A stretch of 64,000 nucleotides of DNA from a virus. Its lineage: Duplodnaviria; Caudoviricetes. Each line of letters starts with the position of its first letter. Position 1 is the stretch's first letter. The notes beneath the pieces were generated by a model. That model did not search any database and was not told the origin of the DNA. It worked only from the letters and a program-made list of their open reading frames with translations. Positions 6,673 through 48,528 of the stretch are shown here, piece by piece. The position numbers and the translations under genes are program-made. The stretch is from the IMG/VR virus record IMGVR_UViG_3300011335_000487, positions 1,701 to 65,700 of that record. One strand, written 5' to 3'.

Positions 6673-6878
6673 TGGATTTACTGGTCATAGATTTTATTGA
6701 AGCGATGCGCAAAAAACTTCGCGACGATATGAATAATTACACTGATGATTTGGCAAATGGTCAGTGCACAGACTTTGCTACGTACAAAGAGCTTTGCGGG
6801 GTGATTCGGGGTCTAGCCTTTGCAGAGCGCCACTTGTTAGACCTCGCTGAGTATTTAAAGGAAGATCGCGATGAGTGA
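6672..6878 (+). CDS. Conserved hypothetical head-module protein
   Basis: Coupled to the portal stop; YKELCGVIRGL motif. Confidence 0.75.
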   Translation: MDLLVIDFIEAMRKKLRDDMNNYTDDLANGQCTDFATYKELCGVIRGLAFAERHLLDLAEYLKEDRDE

Positions 6879-7311
6879 AACCATCGTTTTACCGGAAAAA
6901 GGCCTAATCTTGCCTCCCGGCGTAGCACAGTCCGTAGCACCAGTAGATGAAGAGTACGAGGCAGCAGAACAAAAAGCCACGCAACTTCCAAAAGCAAAAG
7001 GTTGGAGGATTCTGTGCGCTTTGGTGACTGCCGATAATGAGTACGAGAGCGGCCTTGCTAAAGCAGGCATAACCAAGAAGAACGAAGAACTAACTTCACC
7101 GGTCTTGTTTGTGCTGCAGAAAGGGCCTCTGTGCTACTCCGACCTCAGTAAATTTCCAGACGGAGTTCACTGGTGCGAGGAAGGTGAGTTCATTATCACG
7201 CGCCCCTACACGGGCACGCGCATCATGATCCACGGTAAAGAATTTCGGATTATCTACGACGATCAAGTCGAAGCCACAATTGAAGACCCTCGCGGAATTT
7301 CGCGCGTTTAA
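6871..7311 (+). CDS. GroES-like co-chaperonin
   Basis: GWRILC...GPLCYSD...WCEEGEFII...YTGTRIMIHGKEFRIIYDDQV, Cpn10-like pattern common in phage head modules. Confidence 0.8.
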   Translation: MSETIVLPEKGLILPPGVAQSVAPVDEEYEAAEQKATQLPKAKGWRILCALVTADNEYESGLAKAGITKKNEELTSPVLFVLQKGPLCYSDLSKFPDGVHWCEEGEFIITRPYTGTRIMIHGKEFRIIYDDQVEATIEDPRGISRV

Positions 7312-7317
7312 CAGGAG

Positions 7318-8298
7318 TTGCACATGCCAGAAGCCTATAAGTTCCCAGATGAAATTGAGAGTACGGGTAAACCCGAAGATGATGACGTAAATGTCAGTGT
7401 TGACGGCGAGGGCGATATTGAAATTGATATCGAAGACGATACCCCCGAACGTGATCGGTTTGCTAAGCCTTTAGGTCGTGAAGTTGCCGAGCCTACAGAC
7501 GAAGAACTTGAAACCTATGGCAGTAAAGTAAAAGCTCGCATCAAAGAGCTTACGCATGCGCGCCACGATGAACGCCGAGAGAAAGAAAAGCTTTCGCGCG
7601 AGAAGACTGAGCTAGAACGCGTGACGCAGCAACTGATGGAAGAGCGCCGCCGTTACGTGCAGTACATCAACGATGGTACGCAAACCCATGTTGAAACGTT
7701 GAAAGCCAAAGCCGAGGGTGAGCTTGAAATGGCACGGCGTAAGTACAAAGAAGCACAAGAGTCTTACGACTCCGACGCTATGCTTCAGGCTCAAGAAGAT
7801 TTGACTGATGCAAAAATGCGACTAGAGGCTGCAAGAAATTTTCGTCCTACCCCTTTACAAGTAGAACCGGAAGTAGTACAACAGCAACAACAGGTACAAA
7901 GACCGGAACTCGACGATAAGACCTTGCGCTGGCAAGCCAAAAACCAGTGGTTCGGGAATCCGGGGTACGAAGAACTTACAGCTTTTGCACTAGGGCTGCA
8001 CCAAAAACTAGTTACGACGGGCTACGACCCTCGCTCAGACGAATATTTCGAGAGAATCGACTCTCGCATGCGTAGTGTCTTTCCTGAAGTCTTTCAAGGC
8101 GCTCAAGGAAACGACAAGACCACAAGGGCTGAACCAGCTCGAAGACCCGCTACTGTAGTCGCTTCGGCTTCTCGCTCGACGGGGGCTAAGAAGAATGTAA
8201 AGTTAAGCACATCCGCCGCAGCTATCGCTGATCGGCTTGGTGTTTCACACGCAGACTATGCTAAAGAGTTTTTAAAACTGGAGGCTAACAATGGTTAA
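7318..8298 (+). CDS. Putative capsid scaffolding protein
   Basis: Acidic N-terminus, long coiled coil, position upstream of MCP. Confidence 0.65.
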   Translation: MHMPEAYKFPDEIESTGKPEDDDVNVSVDGEGDIEIDIEDDTPERDRFAKPLGREVAEPTDEELETYGSKVKARIKELTHARHDERREKEKLSREKTELERVTQQLMEERRRYVQYINDGTQTHVETLKAKAEGELEMARRKYKEAQESYDSDAMLQAQEDLTDAKMRLEAARNFRPTPLQVEPEVVQQQQQVQRPELDDKTLRWQAKNQWFGNPGYEELTAFALGLHQKLVTTGYDPRSDEYFERIDSRMRSVFPEVFQGAQGNDKTTRAEPARRPATVVASASRSTGAKKNVKLSTSAAAIADRLGVSHADYAKEFLKLEANNG

Positions 8299-9440: not shown

Positions 9441-10358
9441 ATGGCTATTTCACGTTCGCAGCTCCTTAAAGAGCTACTCCCCGGCCTCAACGCCTTGTTT
9501 GGTCTTGAGTACAAACGCTACGGCGAAGAGCATAAAGAACTGTACGAAACTGAGAAATCAGAGCGTTCGTTCGAGGAAGAGACCAAGTTGTCTGGTTTCT
9601 CTGCTGCTCCTGTAAAGTCTGAGGGTGCGCAAATCGCTTACGATAACGCACAAGAAGCTTTCACAGCTCGCTACTCACACGAAACCATTGCTTTGGGTTT
9701 TTCGATTACCGAAGAGGCGATTGAAGATAACCTGTACGACAGCCTGTCTGCTCGTTACACCAAAGCTCTGGCTCGCGCGATGTCGTACACCAAGCAAGTT
9801 AAAGCTGCTTCGGTGTTGAACAACGGCTTCACCAACTCGACACAGTATTATGGTGGCGATGGCGTGCCTCTGTTTAGCGCTTCGCATCCGCTCGTGTCTG
9901 GTGGCACTAACAGCAACATCGCATCTACCCCTGTGGATTTGAACGAAACGTCGCTGGAAAGCGCGTGCATTCAGATCGCTGCATGGACTGATGAGCGTGG
10001 TTTGCTGATTGCCGCTAAACCACGCAAGTTGATCATTCCCCCAGCGTTAATGTTCGTTGCTACTCGTCTGTTAGAGACTAACCTCCGTGTTGGTACTAAC
10101 AACAACGATATCAGCGCAATTGTTAACAACGGTTCTGTGCCTGAAGGCTACTCTGTAAACCACTTCTTGACTGACACAAACGCTTGGTTTTTGTTGACCG
10201 ACGTTCCAAACGGCCTGAAGCATTTTGAGCGTATGCCTTTGGAAACAAAAATGGATGGAGATTTCGACACGGGCAACGTCCGTTACAAAGCCCGCGAGCG
10301 TTATTCGTTTGGCTGGTCTGATCCCTTGGCTGCATGGGGTTCGGCAGGTTCGTTCTAA
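9441..10358 (+). CDS. Major capsid protein (Mu gpT-like, HK97 fold)
   Basis: MAISRSQLLKELLPGLNALFG start, DFDTGNVRYKARERYSFGWSD end; strong RBS and downstream terminator. Confidence 0.92.
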   Translation: MAISRSQLLKELLPGLNALFGLEYKRYGEEHKELYETEKSERSFEEETKLSGFSAAPVKSEGAQIAYDNAQEAFTARYSHETIALGFSITEEAIEDNLYDSLSARYTKALARAMSYTKQVKAASVLNNGFTNSTQYYGGDGVPLFSASHPLVSGGTNSNIASTPVDLNETSLESACIQIAAWTDERGLLIAAKPRKLIIPPALMFVATRLLETNLRVGTNNNDISAIVNNGSVPEGYSVNHFLTDTNAWFLLTDVPNGLKHFERMPLETKMDGDFDTGNVRYKARERYSFGWSDPLAAWGSAGSF

Positions 10359-45417: not shown

Positions 45418-45822
45418 TTACTTCGTTGGTTTGCGAACGGATACATCGTATTCCGTCATACTGTTAAGCCCCGCCGGTACAACGCCGGGGTTCTCTTCTA
45501 GAAACGTAACCATATTGGTCTGGTGGATGCGTTTCTCAAACAGGTCAAGGGCTTCGTGCTCAACGACAAACGTCTTGAACGAGTCCCAATCATCTGTGTA
45601 ATAGCGCACCTTCTGAGCCAATATAATCGTGCCTTCAGAAGTCCTGATGGACGAACTACCAAGCGCAAGCATTTGGTCTTTCATCGCAATCTTAATCTCA
45701 TTTTGCTGAGCCTTGAGCTCTTCAACTTGAGAATCAAATTCTTTAGTTAGTAACTGCACGCGGTCACGTATCTTACGGTAGACTCGCGCGAGGGTGTCGA
45801 GGGGGATTGCTTCTTCAGTCAT
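45418..45822 (-). CDS. Conserved replication-module protein
   Basis: DWDSFKTFV...DLFEKRIHQ...VPAGL; adjacent to SSB. Confidence 0.75.
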   Translation of the reverse strand: MTEEAIPLDTLARVYRKIRDRVQLLTKEFDSQVEELKAQQNEIKIAMKDQMLALGSSSIRTSEGTIILAQKVRYYTDDWDSFKTFVVEHEALDLFEKRIHQTNMVTFLEENPGVVPAGLNSMTEYDVSVRKPTK

Positions 45823-45894: not shown

Positions 45895-47451
45895 TTACTT
45901 GATTACTTCTTCGTACAACTTCAACAGCATATTGTGGTCTTGTACTCGTTCTTCGAGTCGCTTGAACATCTTGCGCTCGATCTCACTTCCTTGCAAGTGT
46001 ATTACCGTAACTTTTGTTGAGTCCTGCCCGATACGATCTGAGCGTGCAATACATTGTGTGTACGTCTCAACCGACATCACCGGACCGTAGAACACGACTG
46101 TGTCAGCCGCTGTCAGGGTGACTCCATGTGATGCAGCTTGTGGCTGTATCACTAGCACGCGAGGGCTCGCTGTCTCCTGAAACTGTTTGAATATCTTGGT
46201 GCGCTTAGTCACACTCACGTCACCGTGAATAACGTCAGCGTCTATGTTGTGCTTGGCGAGGTGTGCCGCGATAGCAGCGATGCTGTGACGGTAGGGGGCG
46301 AACACCAACACCTTACGGCTTGTCTCCTCCATAACTTCTAGCAACACGTTTAAGCGCGGCGCGCAGTCGAACTCCACCACCTCATGCCCGTCCGTGTACG
46401 CTGCACCCGCAGATATCTGCAACAACTTGTTGACCACACCCGCTGCGTTGATAGCCGTGATGGTCTCACCCGCAGCACTCACAAGCATCTGTTCCTTGAG
46501 CATGCGGTAGTACTTCACCTGCTGCGCTGTGAGCGGTATGTCGCGGGTCTCTGTAAGCACTGGTGGTAAGTCGGTGCACTCCTCCTTGGTGTAGCGTATG
46601 GCAGGTTGTAGCGCATCGAACACGAGCTCACTCGACCCTTCCTTGGGAGCCCACTTAAACATCGTGATTTTGTTCATCACTTTGTCTCGCCACGCTGTAG
46701 CAAACTTGGGTACTTTAGTAGGGTTAACAAGTCTAGCTAACCCATACGCATCTAGTGGGGACTGCGAGGCGGGTGTGCCCGTCATCATCCACAAGAGCGT
46801 GTCAGGCGTGAGTATGCTGTTGAGCGACTTCCATCTCTTTGTAGACACGTTCTTGTACGCGTTGGCTTCATCGACAATCACGAGGTCGAACCGACCATCG
46901 TTAGCTATCTCCTCGGCGATGAGGTTCAAGCCATCGTAGTTGACGATAACAAACTCATAGTCACCCTGCACCATCTCGATACGCCGCGATGCTTGCGAGT
47001 GATGCGCTGCGATAGCAGAGCGGTGAATGACGCTCTTGGCGATACCACTCATCCACGCATCGTGCATGATGGACAGAGGGCACAGCACAAGACAACGCCG
47101 CACTTTATTGAGTGACATGAGGTAGTCAGCCGCCCACAACGCAGAGAGCGTCTTACCAGTTCCGGGGTCGTTAAACACGAACGCTCGGCGGTGTAGTGTC
47201 AAGAACGATGACGTGTCGATCTGATGCGCAAACGGTTTGTGCTTGCCCGGCCACTTGTAGCGAGTTGTTATGGGCGACTGAATATCTTTGAGCCCCAGAT
47301 TGCGCAACACCCGCGCTTCATCTAAGCCCCAGTACACCGCCATCTCAAACACGCCGTTGTTCTCAGCGAGTATCTTGCTCTTAGGGATAATGCTGTACTT
47401 GGTGGGTTGCCGTGTCTTAAAGAGTACGGCTTTGTTATCGAGGATGTGCAT
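45895..47451 (-). CDS. SNF2/SF2 helicase
   Basis: PGTGKT, IVDEA, MTGTP, HGVTLTAA, ARSDRIGQ. Confidence 0.9.
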   Translation of the reverse strand: MHILDNKAVLFKTRQPTKYSIIPKSKILAENNGVFEMAVYWGLDEARVLRNLGLKDIQSPITTRYKWPGKHKPFAHQIDTSSFLTLHRRAFVFNDPGTGKTLSALWAADYLMSLNKVRRCLVLCPLSIMHDAWMSGIAKSVIHRSAIAAHHSQASRRIEMVQGDYEFVIVNYDGLNLIAEEIANDGRFDLVIVDEANAYKNVSTKRWKSLNSILTPDTLLWMMTGTPASQSPLDAYGLARLVNPTKVPKFATAWRDKVMNKITMFKWAPKEGSSELVFDALQPAIRYTKEECTDLPPVLTETRDIPLTAQQVKYYRMLKEQMLVSAAGETITAINAAGVVNKLLQISAGAAYTDGHEVVEFDCAPRLNVLLEVMEETSRKVLVFAPYRHSIAAIAAHLAKHNIDADVIHGDVSVTKRTKIFKQFQETASPRVLVIQPQAASHGVTLTAADTVVFYGPVMSVETYTQCIARSDRIGQDSTKVTVIHLQGSEIERKMFKRLEERVQDHNMLLKLYEEVIK

Positions 47452-47785
47452 AGTGAGGTTCTTCTCTTAGGTAGTACGCTTCCGTGGTTTTGTCGTAATC
47501 TAAATATCCTGCTATTGCTAGCCTTTGCCCTACGGCTTGCAAGTAGTTGTCTTGTTCAAGTATGCCTTCATCGTGGATTGTTGTTGATGGCACTACCTCA
47601 CCAAAACGTGCAAGCCAGATGTTGTACAACGCACTCATCGGAACTTTTGATACTTCATCGTTGTAAATGTTTTTATCCATTTTGTTGTGAAACCAAGTTG
47701 CAGGGTCGCCGTAGTACTGATCAGAAAATATTTTGTCGAGTCCGGGCAACAGTTCTTTAAGTAGCTGCGCTCTGCTGATTACCAT
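47435..47785 (-). CDS. Hypothetical protein with MCP-like N-terminal 20 aa
   Basis: MVISRAQLLKELLPGLDKIF vs MCP MAISRSQLLKELLPGLNALF. Confidence 0.75.
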   Translation of the reverse strand: MVISRAQLLKELLPGLDKIFSDQYYGDPATWFHNKMDKNIYNDEVSKVPMSALYNIWLARFGEVVPSTTIHDEGILEQDNYLQAVGQRLAIAGYLDYDKTTEAYYLREEPHYAHPR

Positions 47786-47787
47786 AG

Positions 47788-48240
47788 CTACTCAATGATC
47801 CGGTACACAGGCAACGAGATTTGCGTGAGGTGATGCGTTTCCATCTTCTTTGCTTTTATCAATCGCGCTACCGCAACTTTATAGAACTCATCAAGCTCAG
47901 GATGCTGCACCCACTTGCTGCCGTACTTAACGAGCCATAGGTTTTCGAGTTCTGATATTGCCGCAGCCCACGCGCCTTCTTCTAAGTTTACCGGTGGCGC
48001 AGTATCTCCATTACCTGCGTAGAACACTTGCCCCATACCTTGCGTATTCATTGCACCAAGAGCTTTTTGCCCCATGCCTTGTGTGTTTTGATACGGGCTA
48101 AGATACCCGCCTGTAGTTCTTAGTTTTTCTTGTTCTGCCCTAAGCTGATCAAGATGCTCTTCGAATTGGTTTTTCTCAAGCTGCTGTTGATGCCCTCGCA
48201 GTAAATCGTACGCGTACCTGCCTATTGCTTTTATCTTCAT
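47788..48240 (-). CDS. Hypothetical protein, C-terminus similar to that of 47435-47785
   Basis: ISELENLWLVKYG vs MSALYNIWLARFG. Confidence 0.7.
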   Translation of the reverse strand: MKIKAIGRYAYDLLRGHQQQLEKNQFEEHLDQLRAEQEKLRTTGGYLSPYQNTQGMGQKALGAMNTQGMGQVFYAGNGDTAPPVNLEEGAWAAAISELENLWLVKYGSKWVQHPELDEFYKVAVARLIKAKKMETHHLTQISLPVYRIIE

Positions 48241-48261: not shown

Positions 48262-48528
48262 TTACTTCAAGCTACTGTCTTTGTTACGCTTAACCGATCT
48301 GTTAGTGCTTGCCGGTACTGCGCGTAAGTTACCGCGAGTTGTTGTGCCACCTTTGCTTAGCGGTGTCTTGTGATCGACATCTTTGCCATCGCCCTTGTGC
48401 ACAACACCTTCACGTTCTAACATGCGCCGCGCTTTGTTACGCTGCGCTCGTTTCTTCTTTACCATTTCCGTGCCATCGTATTGCGCGTACTCCTTTGCAT
48501 ACGGGCGAGGTTTGTTGACATAGGGCAT
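48262..48528 (-). CDS. Small HNH-motif protein
   Basis: KDVDHKTPLSKGG...NLRAVPASTNRS. Confidence 0.8.
   Translation of the reverse strand: MPYVNKPRPYAKEYAQYDGTEMVKKKRAQRNKARRMLEREGVVHKGDGKDVDHKTPLSKGGTTTRGNLRAVPASTNRSVKRNKDSSLK

What the first reader, a model, noticed from the sequence alone, without database searches (positions are those of the whole stretch)
47435..47785. Replication-region protein whose N-terminus mimics the major capsid protein N-terminus
Seen: MVISRAQLLKELLPGLDKIF vs MCP MAISRSQLLKELLPGLNALF, 15/20 identical with a 10-residue exact run. Eight of the 15 identical residues use different codons (e.g. AGC/TCA, AGA/CGT), so the peptide rather than the DNA is conserved. The remainder is unrelated to MCP, and the gene lies on the opposite strand 38 kb away. 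Inference: the capsid N-arm was grafted on as a functional tag. It could be a decoy for a capsid-sensing defence system (capsid-triggered immunity such as CapRel is established), a signal that docks cargo to the scaffold, portal or chaperonin, or a timed inhibitor of premature or competitor capsid assembly.
Basis: partly seen in the sequence, partly recalled or inferred. Interest (0 to 1): 0.8.

Follow-up and report, generated by a model that had tools for sequence, protein, structure and literature searches.

The report
Capsid-protein end tags on early proteins
A small early phage protein really does begin with a conserved copy of the capsid protein's N-terminal arm, and it belongs to an undescribed family whose members carry copies of capsid or scaffold end-peptides, probably to dock onto the assembling head.

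Summary
ORF 47435-47785(-) (116 aa) shares 15/20 N-terminal residues with the MCP (9441-10358), and 8 of the 15 use different codons.

The finding is larger than reported.
- The protein is a winged-helix-like domain (AF2 pLDDT 86.6) with an N-terminal helix tag.
- In 13 relatives the winged-helix part has drifted to 22-48% identity, and the MCP-like peptide is its best-conserved segment.
- The domain family occurs as 1-4 tandem paralogs upstream of an SNF2 helicase in many uncultured relatives.
- Sister paralogs start with other capsid-assembly peptides: the MCP C-terminal tail, or the putative scaffold's C-terminal helix-turn-helix-like peptide (HMM E 3e-7 and 2e-8).
- MCP-N and MCP-C tags swap on one winged-helix lineage.
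- An unrelated small protein family also carries the MCP-N tag.

So the peptide is a selected, portable tag. In P22 and 80alpha the coat N-arm binds the scaffold C-terminus. I therefore infer that the tags dock these early proteins onto the MCP-scaffold interface, either as cargo or tether, or as a competitor.

MCP termini are nearly invariant, so tracking of the tag to each phage's own MCP could not be tested. I found no description of such tags in the few papers I searched.

The parts
47435..47785 (-). Target gene: 116-aa early protein made of an MCP N-arm tag plus a winged-helix-like domain
   Evidence: ORF. 14 close homologs in conserved synteny. Distant homologs.
47714..47785 (-). Tag: codons 1-24, a copy of MCP residues 1-24, predicted helix 5-25
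   Evidence: BLASTP E 8e-9. Residues 1-16 identical in the 13 full-length close homologs, window A2V. First 17 residues of the homolog consensus are identical to 29 of 120 MCP N-termini. AF2 helix at pLDDT about 77.
47450..47668 (-). Winged-helix-like domain (residues 40-112) with the LWxxRFG motif; W57 is invariant
   Evidence: AF2 with an 86-sequence alignment gives pLDDT 94 or more over residues 41-112, apart from a dip to about 89 at residues 71-80; topology H-E-H-H-E-E. Top structural matches are mostly winged helices, but Z is at most 4.1. No Pfam or PHROG family.
47788..48240 (-). Upstream tandem paralog (150 aa) with the same domain. Its N-terminus MKIKAIGRYAYD may be a degenerate MCP C-tail tag
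   Evidence: BLASTP on the LWxxxG motif, E 0.007. Groups with the D/E paralog class in the domain tree. The stop lies 2 nt before the target ATG.
45895..47451 (-). SNF2-family helicase. Its start overlaps the target's 3' end by 17 nt. Conserved anchor of the paralog array
   Evidence: PF00176 and PF00271, phrog_62. The same arrangement occurs in the 72 of 78 IMG/VR loci that carry a family member upstream of the helicase.
9441..10358 (+). Major capsid protein (305 aa), the donor of the tag sequences
   Evidence: phrog_371, PF25209. At least 8000 relatives.
9441..9512 (+). MCP N-arm, codons 1-24, the source of the target's tag
10278..10355 (+). MCP C-terminal tail (VRYKARERYSFGWSDPLAAWGSAGSF), copied at the N-terminus of sister paralogs in related phages
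   Evidence: The motif RY..GW.DP occurs only here in the window. BLASTP E 8e-6 and 2e-5. HMM gives 9 hits, E 3e-7 to 9e-3, all starting at residues 2-8 of the proteins. Blind tblastn.
7318..8298 (+). Putative scaffolding protein (326 aa, acidic N-terminus, coiled-coil middle). The role is inferred from position and composition
   Evidence: Lies between the portal and the MCP. Only weak coiled-coil-type Pfam hits.
8188..8295 (+). Scaffold C-terminal peptide (KKNVKLSTSAAAIADRLGVSHADYAKEFLKLEANNG), copied at the N-terminus of a third paralog class in related phages
   Evidence: HMM of 10 scaffold tails hits residues 2-35 of L084, L080 and L091 proteins at E 2e-8, 5e-8 and 1e-5. Blind tblastn hits only scaffold homologs.

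Best explanation
The target is a real early/replication-module gene. It encodes a two-part protein: an N-terminal helix copied from the first 24 residues of the phage's own major capsid protein, joined to a small winged-helix-like domain.

The domain belongs to an undescribed family that sits as 1-4 tandem paralogs just upstream of an SNF2 helicase in a large group of uncultured phages. Several lineages of the family have replaced their N-terminal extension with terminal peptides of the head-assembly proteins. These are the MCP N-arm (this gene), the MCP C-terminal tail, or the C-terminal helix-turn-helix-like peptide of the putative scaffold.

Shown here: the copies are real, are kept under purifying selection at the peptide level, have been exchanged for one another on the same domain lineage, and also occur on an unrelated small protein.

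Inferred: the tags work as address labels for the MCP-scaffold interface. In P22 and 80alpha the scaffold C-terminus binds the coat N-arm helix. An N-arm copy should therefore bind the scaffold C-terminus, and a scaffold-tail copy should bind MCP. The tagged proteins would then be recruited to assembling procapsids, or compete there. They could be encapsidated DNA-binding cargo, or a tether between the helicase/DNA and the procapsid. Less likely, they are timed competitors that delay assembly.
For: - Real copy.
- Close homologs: residues 1-16 are identical in the 13 full-length close homologs (the window has A2V), with 3 synonymous sites and otherwise no replacement. The rest of the gene reaches dN 0.43.
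- Distant homologs: 13 at 22-48% identity still start with MA(I/L/V)(S/T)R..(L)(L)KELLPGL.xLFxxxY, and this is their best-conserved block.
- Identity with MCPs: 29 of the 120 nearest MCPs start with the same 17 residues as the homolog consensus.
- MCP C-tail tag on sister paralogs.
- Scaffold C-terminal tag on a third class.
- Position: all significant HMM hits start at residues 1-8 of family members, in a database of 1556 ORFs.
- Tag swapping: P0144 and P0154 (MCP-N tag) nest inside an MCP-C-tagged subclade (100/93 support). The P0144 domain is 46% identical to an MCP-C-tagged protein, and the alignment starts only after the tag.
- Second, unrelated carrier of the MCP-N tag: P0149 and P0152, beside a VRR-NUC-like gene (by eye).
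- Published basis for the interface: the P22 scaffold C-terminal helix-turn-helix binds the coat N-arm (PMC9965877). The 80alpha scaffold C-terminal helix-and-hook binds the capsid protein N-arm helix (PMC5644958). T4 internal proteins share only a short capsid targeting sequence (PMC3012670).
Against: - No binding evidence of any kind.
- The genes sit in the early/replication operon on the strand opposite the head genes. This is not where head cargo genes are usually expected.
- The scaffold assignment of 7318-8298 rests on position and composition only.
- The role of the MCP C-tail in assembly is unknown. Why N-arm and C-tail tags should be interchangeable is not explained by the P22/80alpha model alone.
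- Most paralogs in the wider family carry N-terminal extensions with no detectable capsid counterpart.
- A variant tag (P0145) has no matching MCP N-terminus in the database. Some tags therefore drift, although MCP N-termini in the genomes examined stay nearly constant.
Confidence: 0.5

Rival explanations
1. Decoy or blocker for host immunity that senses capsid-assembly proteins. The early-made proteins would display the exposed termini of MCP and scaffold, occupying or inactivating host sensors before the real late proteins appear.
For: The genes are expressed from the early/replication operon. Tags come from MCP and scaffold, both reported as triggers or escape loci of defence systems such as CapRel(SJ46) and type I CBASS (review PMC13728456). 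The domain part evolves fast and is mosaic (dS up to 1.8, dN up to 0.43, versus helicase dS 0.05-0.45). The tags are patchy and swap between lineages. Both features are typical of arms-race genes.
Against: A faithful copy of a trigger would be expected to trigger, not block. No defence system is known to read the extreme N- or C-terminal 20 residues of an MCP. The host and its defences are unknown. The conserved partner domain and the fixed position next to the helicase are not explained.
Confidence: 0.15
2. A borrowed interaction pair used among the paralogs themselves. The N-arm tag on one paralog binds the scaffold-tail tag on another, so that the paralogs form hetero-oligomers on DNA or on the helicase, with no link to head assembly.
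For: L099 encodes a possible degenerate scaffold-tail-like tag (by eye; not significant in the HMM search), an MCP-N tag and an MCP-C tag in adjacent genes. L080 has scaffold-tail and MCP-C tags side by side.
Against: The window genome has an MCP-N-tagged protein but no scaffold-tail-tagged paralog. Its only cognate partner would be the real scaffold. The tags stay close to the capsid-protein sequences. Free co-evolution of a private pair would be expected to let them drift.
Confidence: 0.1
3. A signal for a chaperone or protease. The MCP termini would be the segments recognised by GroEL with the phage GroES-like protein, or by a host protease. The small proteins would use them for folding, for timed degradation, or to titrate that machinery.
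For: The phage encodes a GroES-like protein at 6871-7311 (phrog_3188, E 3e-5; annotated as GroES in Pag-Yong1). The N-arm is an amphipathic helix and the C-tail is rich in aromatic residues.
Against: The scaffold-tail tag does not fit a model specific to MCP folding. A 116-aa winged-helix protein should not need a chaperonin. No evidence shows that these termini are recognition elements.
Confidence: 0.07
4. A neutral relic of an illegitimate recombination, or a chance resemblance with no function of its own.
For: Among the closest homologs, the tag's synonymous divergence (0.04-0.37) equals the genomic background measured in the helicase (0.05-0.45). Its DNA conservation in that shallow clade is therefore not in itself special.
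Against: The tag is the best-conserved block across homologs of 22-48% identity. It is saturated at synonymous sites against the MCP gene, yet 15/20 residues are kept. There have been independent grafts of three different capsid-assembly peptides, plus tag swaps. Pairwise E 8e-9 excludes chance.
Confidence: 0.03

Closest known systems
T4 capsid targeting sequence (CTS) of the internal proteins IPI-III and Alt
   Same: A short N-terminal peptide is the only thing shared by otherwise diverse small proteins, and it addresses them to the scaffolding core of the prohead (PMC3012670). Here too, one short N-terminal peptide sits on two unrelated small protein families, and alternative tags sit on one domain family.
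   Different: The T4 CTS is not a copy of the MCP or scaffold terminus. It is removed by the prohead protease, and encapsidation is demonstrated. Here the tags are copies of the MCP and scaffold ends. No protease was identified, and encapsidation is only inferred.
SaPI1 CpmB, an alternative scaffold that competes with the 80alpha scaffold C-terminal helix-and-hook at the capsid protein N-arm
   Same: A non-scaffold protein occupies the scaffold's binding site at the capsid protein N-arm (PMC5644958). The scaffold-tail-tagged paralogs (L080, L084, L091) would be an analogous case.
   Different: CpmB is encoded by a satellite that parasitises the phage, and it redirects capsid size. Here the proteins are encoded by the phage itself (a complete genome with terminal repeats). 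They have a winged-helix body, and the target mimics the MCP side of the interface, not the scaffold side.
P22 scaffold-fusion cargo loading (engineered) and encapsulin cargo-loading peptides
   Same: A short interface peptide is enough to load unrelated cargo into an HK97-fold shell (PMC9962691 is listed but was not read in detail; the encapsulin part is from my own knowledge).
   Different: Those peptides come from the scaffold or are dedicated cargo tags. A natural use of the MCP's own N-arm or C-tail as a tag is not known to me.
Generic winged-helix domains (MarR/IclR-type regulators, cullin WHB, RPA32C)
   Same: The same H-E-H-H-E-E topology. These were the top structural matches. RPA32C is a protein-binding winged helix that recruits the SNF2-family enzyme SMARCAL1 (PDB 4mqv, listed). 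That recalls the tight linkage to an SNF2 helicase here.
   Different: Z is at most 4.1, and there is no sequence family match. Conservation peaks in helix 1 (LWxxRFG), not in the recognition helix. Neither DNA binding nor helicase binding is established.

Membership tests
HK97-fold major capsid protein (paralog of the MCP) | Similarity beyond the N-arm (E-loop, P and A domains) | tested here: not met
   BLASTP similarity ends at residue 27-29. The AF2 model of residues 40-112 is a winged-helix-like alpha/beta domain.
Winged-helix fold | H1-S1-H2-H3-S2-S3 topology in a confident model, with structural matches to solved winged helices | tested here: inconclusive
   The topology is met at pLDDT 94 or more over most of the domain. 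The best rows are mostly winged helices, but Z is at most 4.1 and Foldseek E is 0.05 or higher. This is fold-level resemblance only.
Winged-helix DNA-binding regulators (MarR/IclR-like) | Sequence membership in a curated family, or demonstrated DNA binding | tested here: not met
   No Pfam or PHROG hit for any of 20 family members at E up to 1. DNA binding cannot be tested with these tools.
T4-type CTS-addressed internal head proteins | A short N-terminal peptide shared by otherwise unrelated proteins | tested here: met
   The MCP-N tag occurs on the winged-helix family and on the unrelated P0149/P0152 family.
T4-type CTS-addressed internal head proteins | The protein is present in proheads or virions, and the tag is removed by a prohead protease | not testable with these tools
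   No cultured phage carries the family. No prohead protease gene was recognised in the head module.
Scaffold-mimicking capsid-redirecting proteins (CpmB-like) | Carries a copy of the scaffold's C-terminal MCP-binding peptide | tested here: not met
   The target carries the MCP N-arm, not the scaffold tail. Sister paralogs in L080, L084 and L091 do carry a scaffold-tail copy.
Scaffold-mimicking capsid-redirecting proteins (CpmB-like) | Encoded by a satellite or other parasite of the phage | tested here: not met
   The gene lies in the phage's own 65.7-kb genome, which has direct terminal repeats. It sits in conserved synteny with the replication genes.
New family proposed here: helicase-linked winged-helix proteins with capsid-derived N-terminal tags | An LWxxRFG winged-helix-like domain encoded directly upstream of the SNF2 helicase | tested here: met
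   Alignments A2 and A5 (W57 invariant). Found in 72 of 78 IMG/VR helicase loci.
New family proposed here: helicase-linked winged-helix proteins with capsid-derived N-terminal tags | The N-terminal extension is significantly similar to a terminus of the MCP or scaffold | tested here: met
   Target versus MCP N-arm, E 8e-9. Family-wide HMM statistics.

The most novel reading that the evidence does not exclude
This phage group has a natural, modular capsid-addressing system. A family of early winged-helix proteins linked to an SNF2 helicase carries interchangeable copies of the head-assembly interface peptides: the MCP N-arm, the MCP C-tail and the scaffold C-terminal helix-turn-helix. With these tags the proteins plug into the MCP-scaffold interaction. 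They would either be loaded into heads as DNA-bound cargo delivered to the next host, or they would couple replication and DNA processing physically to procapsids.
Probability: 0.35. Interest if true: 0.85.

Novelty: new variant of a known kind. Interest (0 to 1): 0.78.

Why it matters
- It would be a natural case of a virus re-using the end-peptides of its own shell and scaffold proteins as portable address labels on unrelated proteins. To my knowledge this has so far been seen only in engineered P22 cargo loading, in the dedicated T4 targeting sequence, and in satellite scaffold mimics.
- It predicts which 20-30-residue segments mediate MCP-scaffold recognition in a very abundant but uncultured phage group. 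More than 8000 MCP relatives exist, and the nearest isolates infect Pelagibacter, Planktothrix and Roseobacter. Those MCP termini are almost invariant.
- It gives a simple, testable handle. The tags can be fused to a reporter and co-expressed with MCP and scaffold.
- It may reveal either a new class of encapsidated early effectors or a physical link between replication and packaging.

Tried and rejected
No verdict.
- Covariation of the tag with each phage's own MCP:
  - MCP N- and C-termini are nearly invariant in seven related genomes and in 120 MCPs.
  - Contigs with divergent tags are 31 kb or shorter and lack the MCP.
  - Assemblies loci cannot be extended.
  - A search for MCPs with the variant P0145 N-terminus found none (weak evidence).
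  - Pattern scans of IMG/VR for variant tags gave 0 and 1 hits.
- Nucleotide-level constraint on the tag (RNA or DNA element): rejected. Its synonymous divergence among close homologs equals that of the flanking helicase, and its codons differ from those of the MCP.
- Cultured relatives carrying the family, for proteomics or host information: none in 50,697 phage records.
- Known families for the domain: none in Pfam, PHROGs, the PDB sequence search on the MCP, or the Atlas.
- Capsid counterparts for other N-terminal extension classes: none found for MEKMS..., MTK...TWLTT or MELLKSLF.... The MGISDEDYA class matches the scaffold tail only weakly (E 0.04-1.6) and is left unassigned.
- The small protein as a rearranged MCP fragment: a weak secondary BLAST match (28% over 68 aa, E 0.004) is not supported by the fold.
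Full report
**The observation**

The window is bases 1701-65700 of a 65.7-kb IMG/VR phage genome with direct terminal repeats. ORF 47435-47785 on the minus strand encodes 116 aa beginning MVISRAQLLKELLPGLDKIF. ORF 9441-10358 on the plus strand begins MAISRSQLLKELLPGLNALF. It is the major capsid protein (phrog_371, E 2e-23; PF25209, E 8e-13).

BLASTP aligns residues 1-27 with MCP residues 1-29 (18/29 identical, E 8e-9) and finds nothing credible elsewhere. Of 20 residues, 15 are identical, and eight of these use different codons. Synonymous divergence between the two 5' ends is saturated, at dS about 1.8 over codons 1-17.

The neighbours are replication genes:
- an SNF2 helicase whose start overlaps the target's end by 17 nt;
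- a PD-(D/E)XK nuclease;
- PolA;
- a DUF927 primase/helicase.

**A real, conserved gene**

Fourteen close homologs (55-94% identity) occur on metagenome contigs, always between a 108-173-aa ORF and the helicase. In the 13 full-length homologs, residues 1-16 read MAISRAQLLKELLPGL without exception. The window copy has A2V. Across seven distinct DNA sequences, these codons show three synonymous sites and no other replacement.

The tag's synonymous divergence (0.04-0.37) matches that of the adjacent helicase (0.05-0.45). There is therefore no sign of a nucleotide-level element. The rest of the gene is much more divergent (dS 0.2-1.8, dN up to 0.43). It looks hypervariable or mosaic.

**Deep conservation of the tag**

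An exhaustive profile search of 1.84 billion representatives found further full-length homologs at 22-48% identity. Thirteen still begin with an MCP-like peptide. Examples are MAISRAQLVKELLPGLDELF, MALTRTQLLKELLPGLNELF, MAVSRQQLAKELLPGLNKLF and MAITRHELLKTLAPELNAAF.

In the joint alignment the peptide is the best-conserved block. Only one residue of the C-terminal domain (W57) is invariant. Of the 120 MCPs nearest to the window's, 29 begin with exactly the 17 residues of the small-protein consensus. A relic decaying neutrally is excluded.

**The body of the protein**

- With an 86-sequence alignment, AlphaFold2 gives pLDDT 86.6. Confidence is 94 or more over most of residues 41-112, with a dip to about 89 at residues 71-80.
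- The model has a helix at residues 5-25 (pLDDT about 77) and an H-E-H-H-E-E domain at residues 50-106.
- The best structural matches are mostly winged helices, such as cullin WHB, MarR/IclR, MecI, RPA32C and ESCRT-II. They are weak (Z at most 4.1; Foldseek E 0.05 or higher).
- No Pfam or PHROG family matches.

**The family and its other tags**

I fetched 80 IMG/VR loci through the helicase (68-83% identity). In 72 of the 78 loci examined, one to four tandem genes upstream of the helicase encode the same domain (motif LWxxRFG), with very different N-terminal extensions.

One class begins M..LKYKATDRYEMGWTDPR or MKFKTTERYSMGWTDPRGMF. The motif RY..GW.DP occurs only once in the window, at the C-terminus of the MCP: VRYKARERYSFGWSDPLAAWGSAGSF.
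- Pairwise BLASTP gives E 8e-6 and 2e-5.
- An HMM of MCP C-tails, searched against all 1556 ORFs of the helicase loci, hits nine proteins (E 3e-7 to 9e-3). All are family members, and every hit starts at residues 2-8.

A third class begins MGKVKQ.I.LT.SQ.AIA.K.G....(D/Q)YA. This matches the C-terminal peptide of the 326-aa coiled-coil protein encoded between the portal and the MCP (window 7318-8298). I take that protein to be the scaffold, from its position and composition.
- An HMM of ten scaffold tails hits residues 2-35 of three family members at E 2e-8, 5e-8 and 1e-5.

Blind tblastn against 50,697 phage genomes agrees with both assignments. The MCP-C-tagged protein hits only the 3' ends of MCP genes. 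The scaffold-tail-tagged protein hits only scaffold homologs. Both sets of hits are weak (E 0.04-0.5).

Locus L099 has four paralogs in a row. By my reading they are an untagged one, a possibly degenerate scaffold-tail-like one (not significant in the search), an MCP-N-tagged one and an MCP-C-tagged one, followed by the helicase.

**Tag swapping and a second carrier**

In a tree of the domain alone, all MCP-tagged proteins (N or C) fall in two clades on either side of the (arbitrary) midpoint root. P0144 and P0154, which carry the MCP-N tag, nest inside an MCP-C-tagged subclade with 100/93 support.

BLASTP confirms this. The P0144 domain is 46% identical to an MCP-C-tagged protein, and the alignment starts only after the tag. 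By contrast, P0144 is 33% identical to the window target overall, and that figure includes the shared tag. N-arm and C-tail tags have therefore replaced one another on one lineage.

Two unrelated 82-86-aa proteins (P0149, P0152) also start with the MCP N-arm peptide. They lie among small early-type genes, next to what looks by eye like a VRR-NUC nuclease. The peptide thus behaves as a portable module.

**Mechanism**

Shown:
- copying from the capsid proteins;
- purifying selection on the peptide;
- recurrent grafting of three different head-assembly peptides;
- constant placement at the N-terminus of early proteins next to the helicase.

Inferred: in P22, the scaffold's C-terminal helix-turn-helix binds the coat N-arm helix (PMC9965877). 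In 80alpha, the scaffold's C-terminal helix-and-hook binds the capsid protein N-arm (PMC5644958). The tags found here come from the two proteins of that interface. I therefore think they dock the winged-helix proteins onto scaffold or MCP during procapsid assembly.

Two outcomes fit this model. The first is loading or tethering, which is analogous to the T4 capsid targeting sequence (PMC3012670). The second is competition, which is analogous to CpmB. I rank loading or tethering first, because a phage gains little from poisoning its own assembly.

The model does not explain why the MCP C-tail is interchangeable with the N-arm.

**Rivals**

- Decoy for capsid-sensing immunity (0.15).
- A private interaction pair among the paralogs (0.10).
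- A chaperonin or protease signal (0.07). The phage has a GroES-like gene at 6871-7311.
- A neutral relic (0.03).

**Limits**

- No cultured phage carries the family.
- MCP termini are nearly invariant, so covariation cannot be tested. The one variant tag I could query has no MCP counterpart in the database.
- The earlier notes on this genome did not bear on this finding.

**Novelty**

The concepts of a capsid-addressing peptide and of scaffold mimicry are known. Copies of the MCP's own N-arm and C-tail, and of the scaffold tail, on a helicase-linked family of early proteins are not described in the few papers I searched and read. I do not know of any such description either.

Noticed in passing
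L109:792-1040 and L108:467-727 (proteins P0152, P0149): A second, unrelated family of 82-86-aa proteins begins with the MCP N-arm peptide (MAISRAELLKELLPGLNELFGT.Y). It lies among small overlapping early-type genes, next to what looks by eye like a VRR-NUC nuclease gene.
   Followed up: partly
window 45418-45822 (-): The 134-aa gene just downstream of the helicase matches PHROG 13900, annotated 'minor head protein' (E 4e-22), and Pfam DUF7307 (Pam3 gp33-like), below the curated cut-off. It sits in the replication operon. If the annotation is right, this operon already encodes a head-associated protein.
   Followed up: partly
window 6871-7311 (+): A GroES-like co-chaperonin gene (phrog_3188, E 3e-5; annotated as GroES in Planktothrix phage Pag-Yong1) lies between the portal and the putative scaffold.
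   Followed up: partly
window 47435-48240 and loci L004-L013: The winged-helix parts of the target and its upstream paralog are far more divergent between otherwise near-identical phages (dS up to 1.8, dN up to 0.43) than the flanking helicase (dS 0.05-0.45). The upstream paralog varies from 108 to 173 aa. This is a local hypervariable or mosaic spot.
   Followed up: partly
window 9981-10010 (MCP residues 181-190): The MCP contains an internal motif, GWTDERGLLI, that resembles its own C-tail (GWSDPLAAWG) and the MCP-C tags (GWTDPRGMF).
   Followed up: no
window 48262-48528 (-): A small HNH-like 88-aa gene (phrog_4590; weak PF01844) is conserved just upstream of the paralog array. In some relatives it directly abuts the helicase.
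   Followed up: no
proteins P0159, P0163, P0166, P0176, P0178: Public protein sets contain many MCP N-terminal fragments fused to unrelated or frameshifted sequence. These are probably assembly or gene-calling artefacts. They could be mistaken for further tagged proteins.
   Followed up: no
L019:1211-1708, L021:1543-1950, P0145: Some long family members keep an MCP-like region out to about MCP residue 41 (DAHEY.TEAK versus EEHKELYETEKS). L019 combines an MCP-C tag with a degenerate N-arm region. This hints that a whole N-arm was once part of the family's architecture.
   Followed up: no
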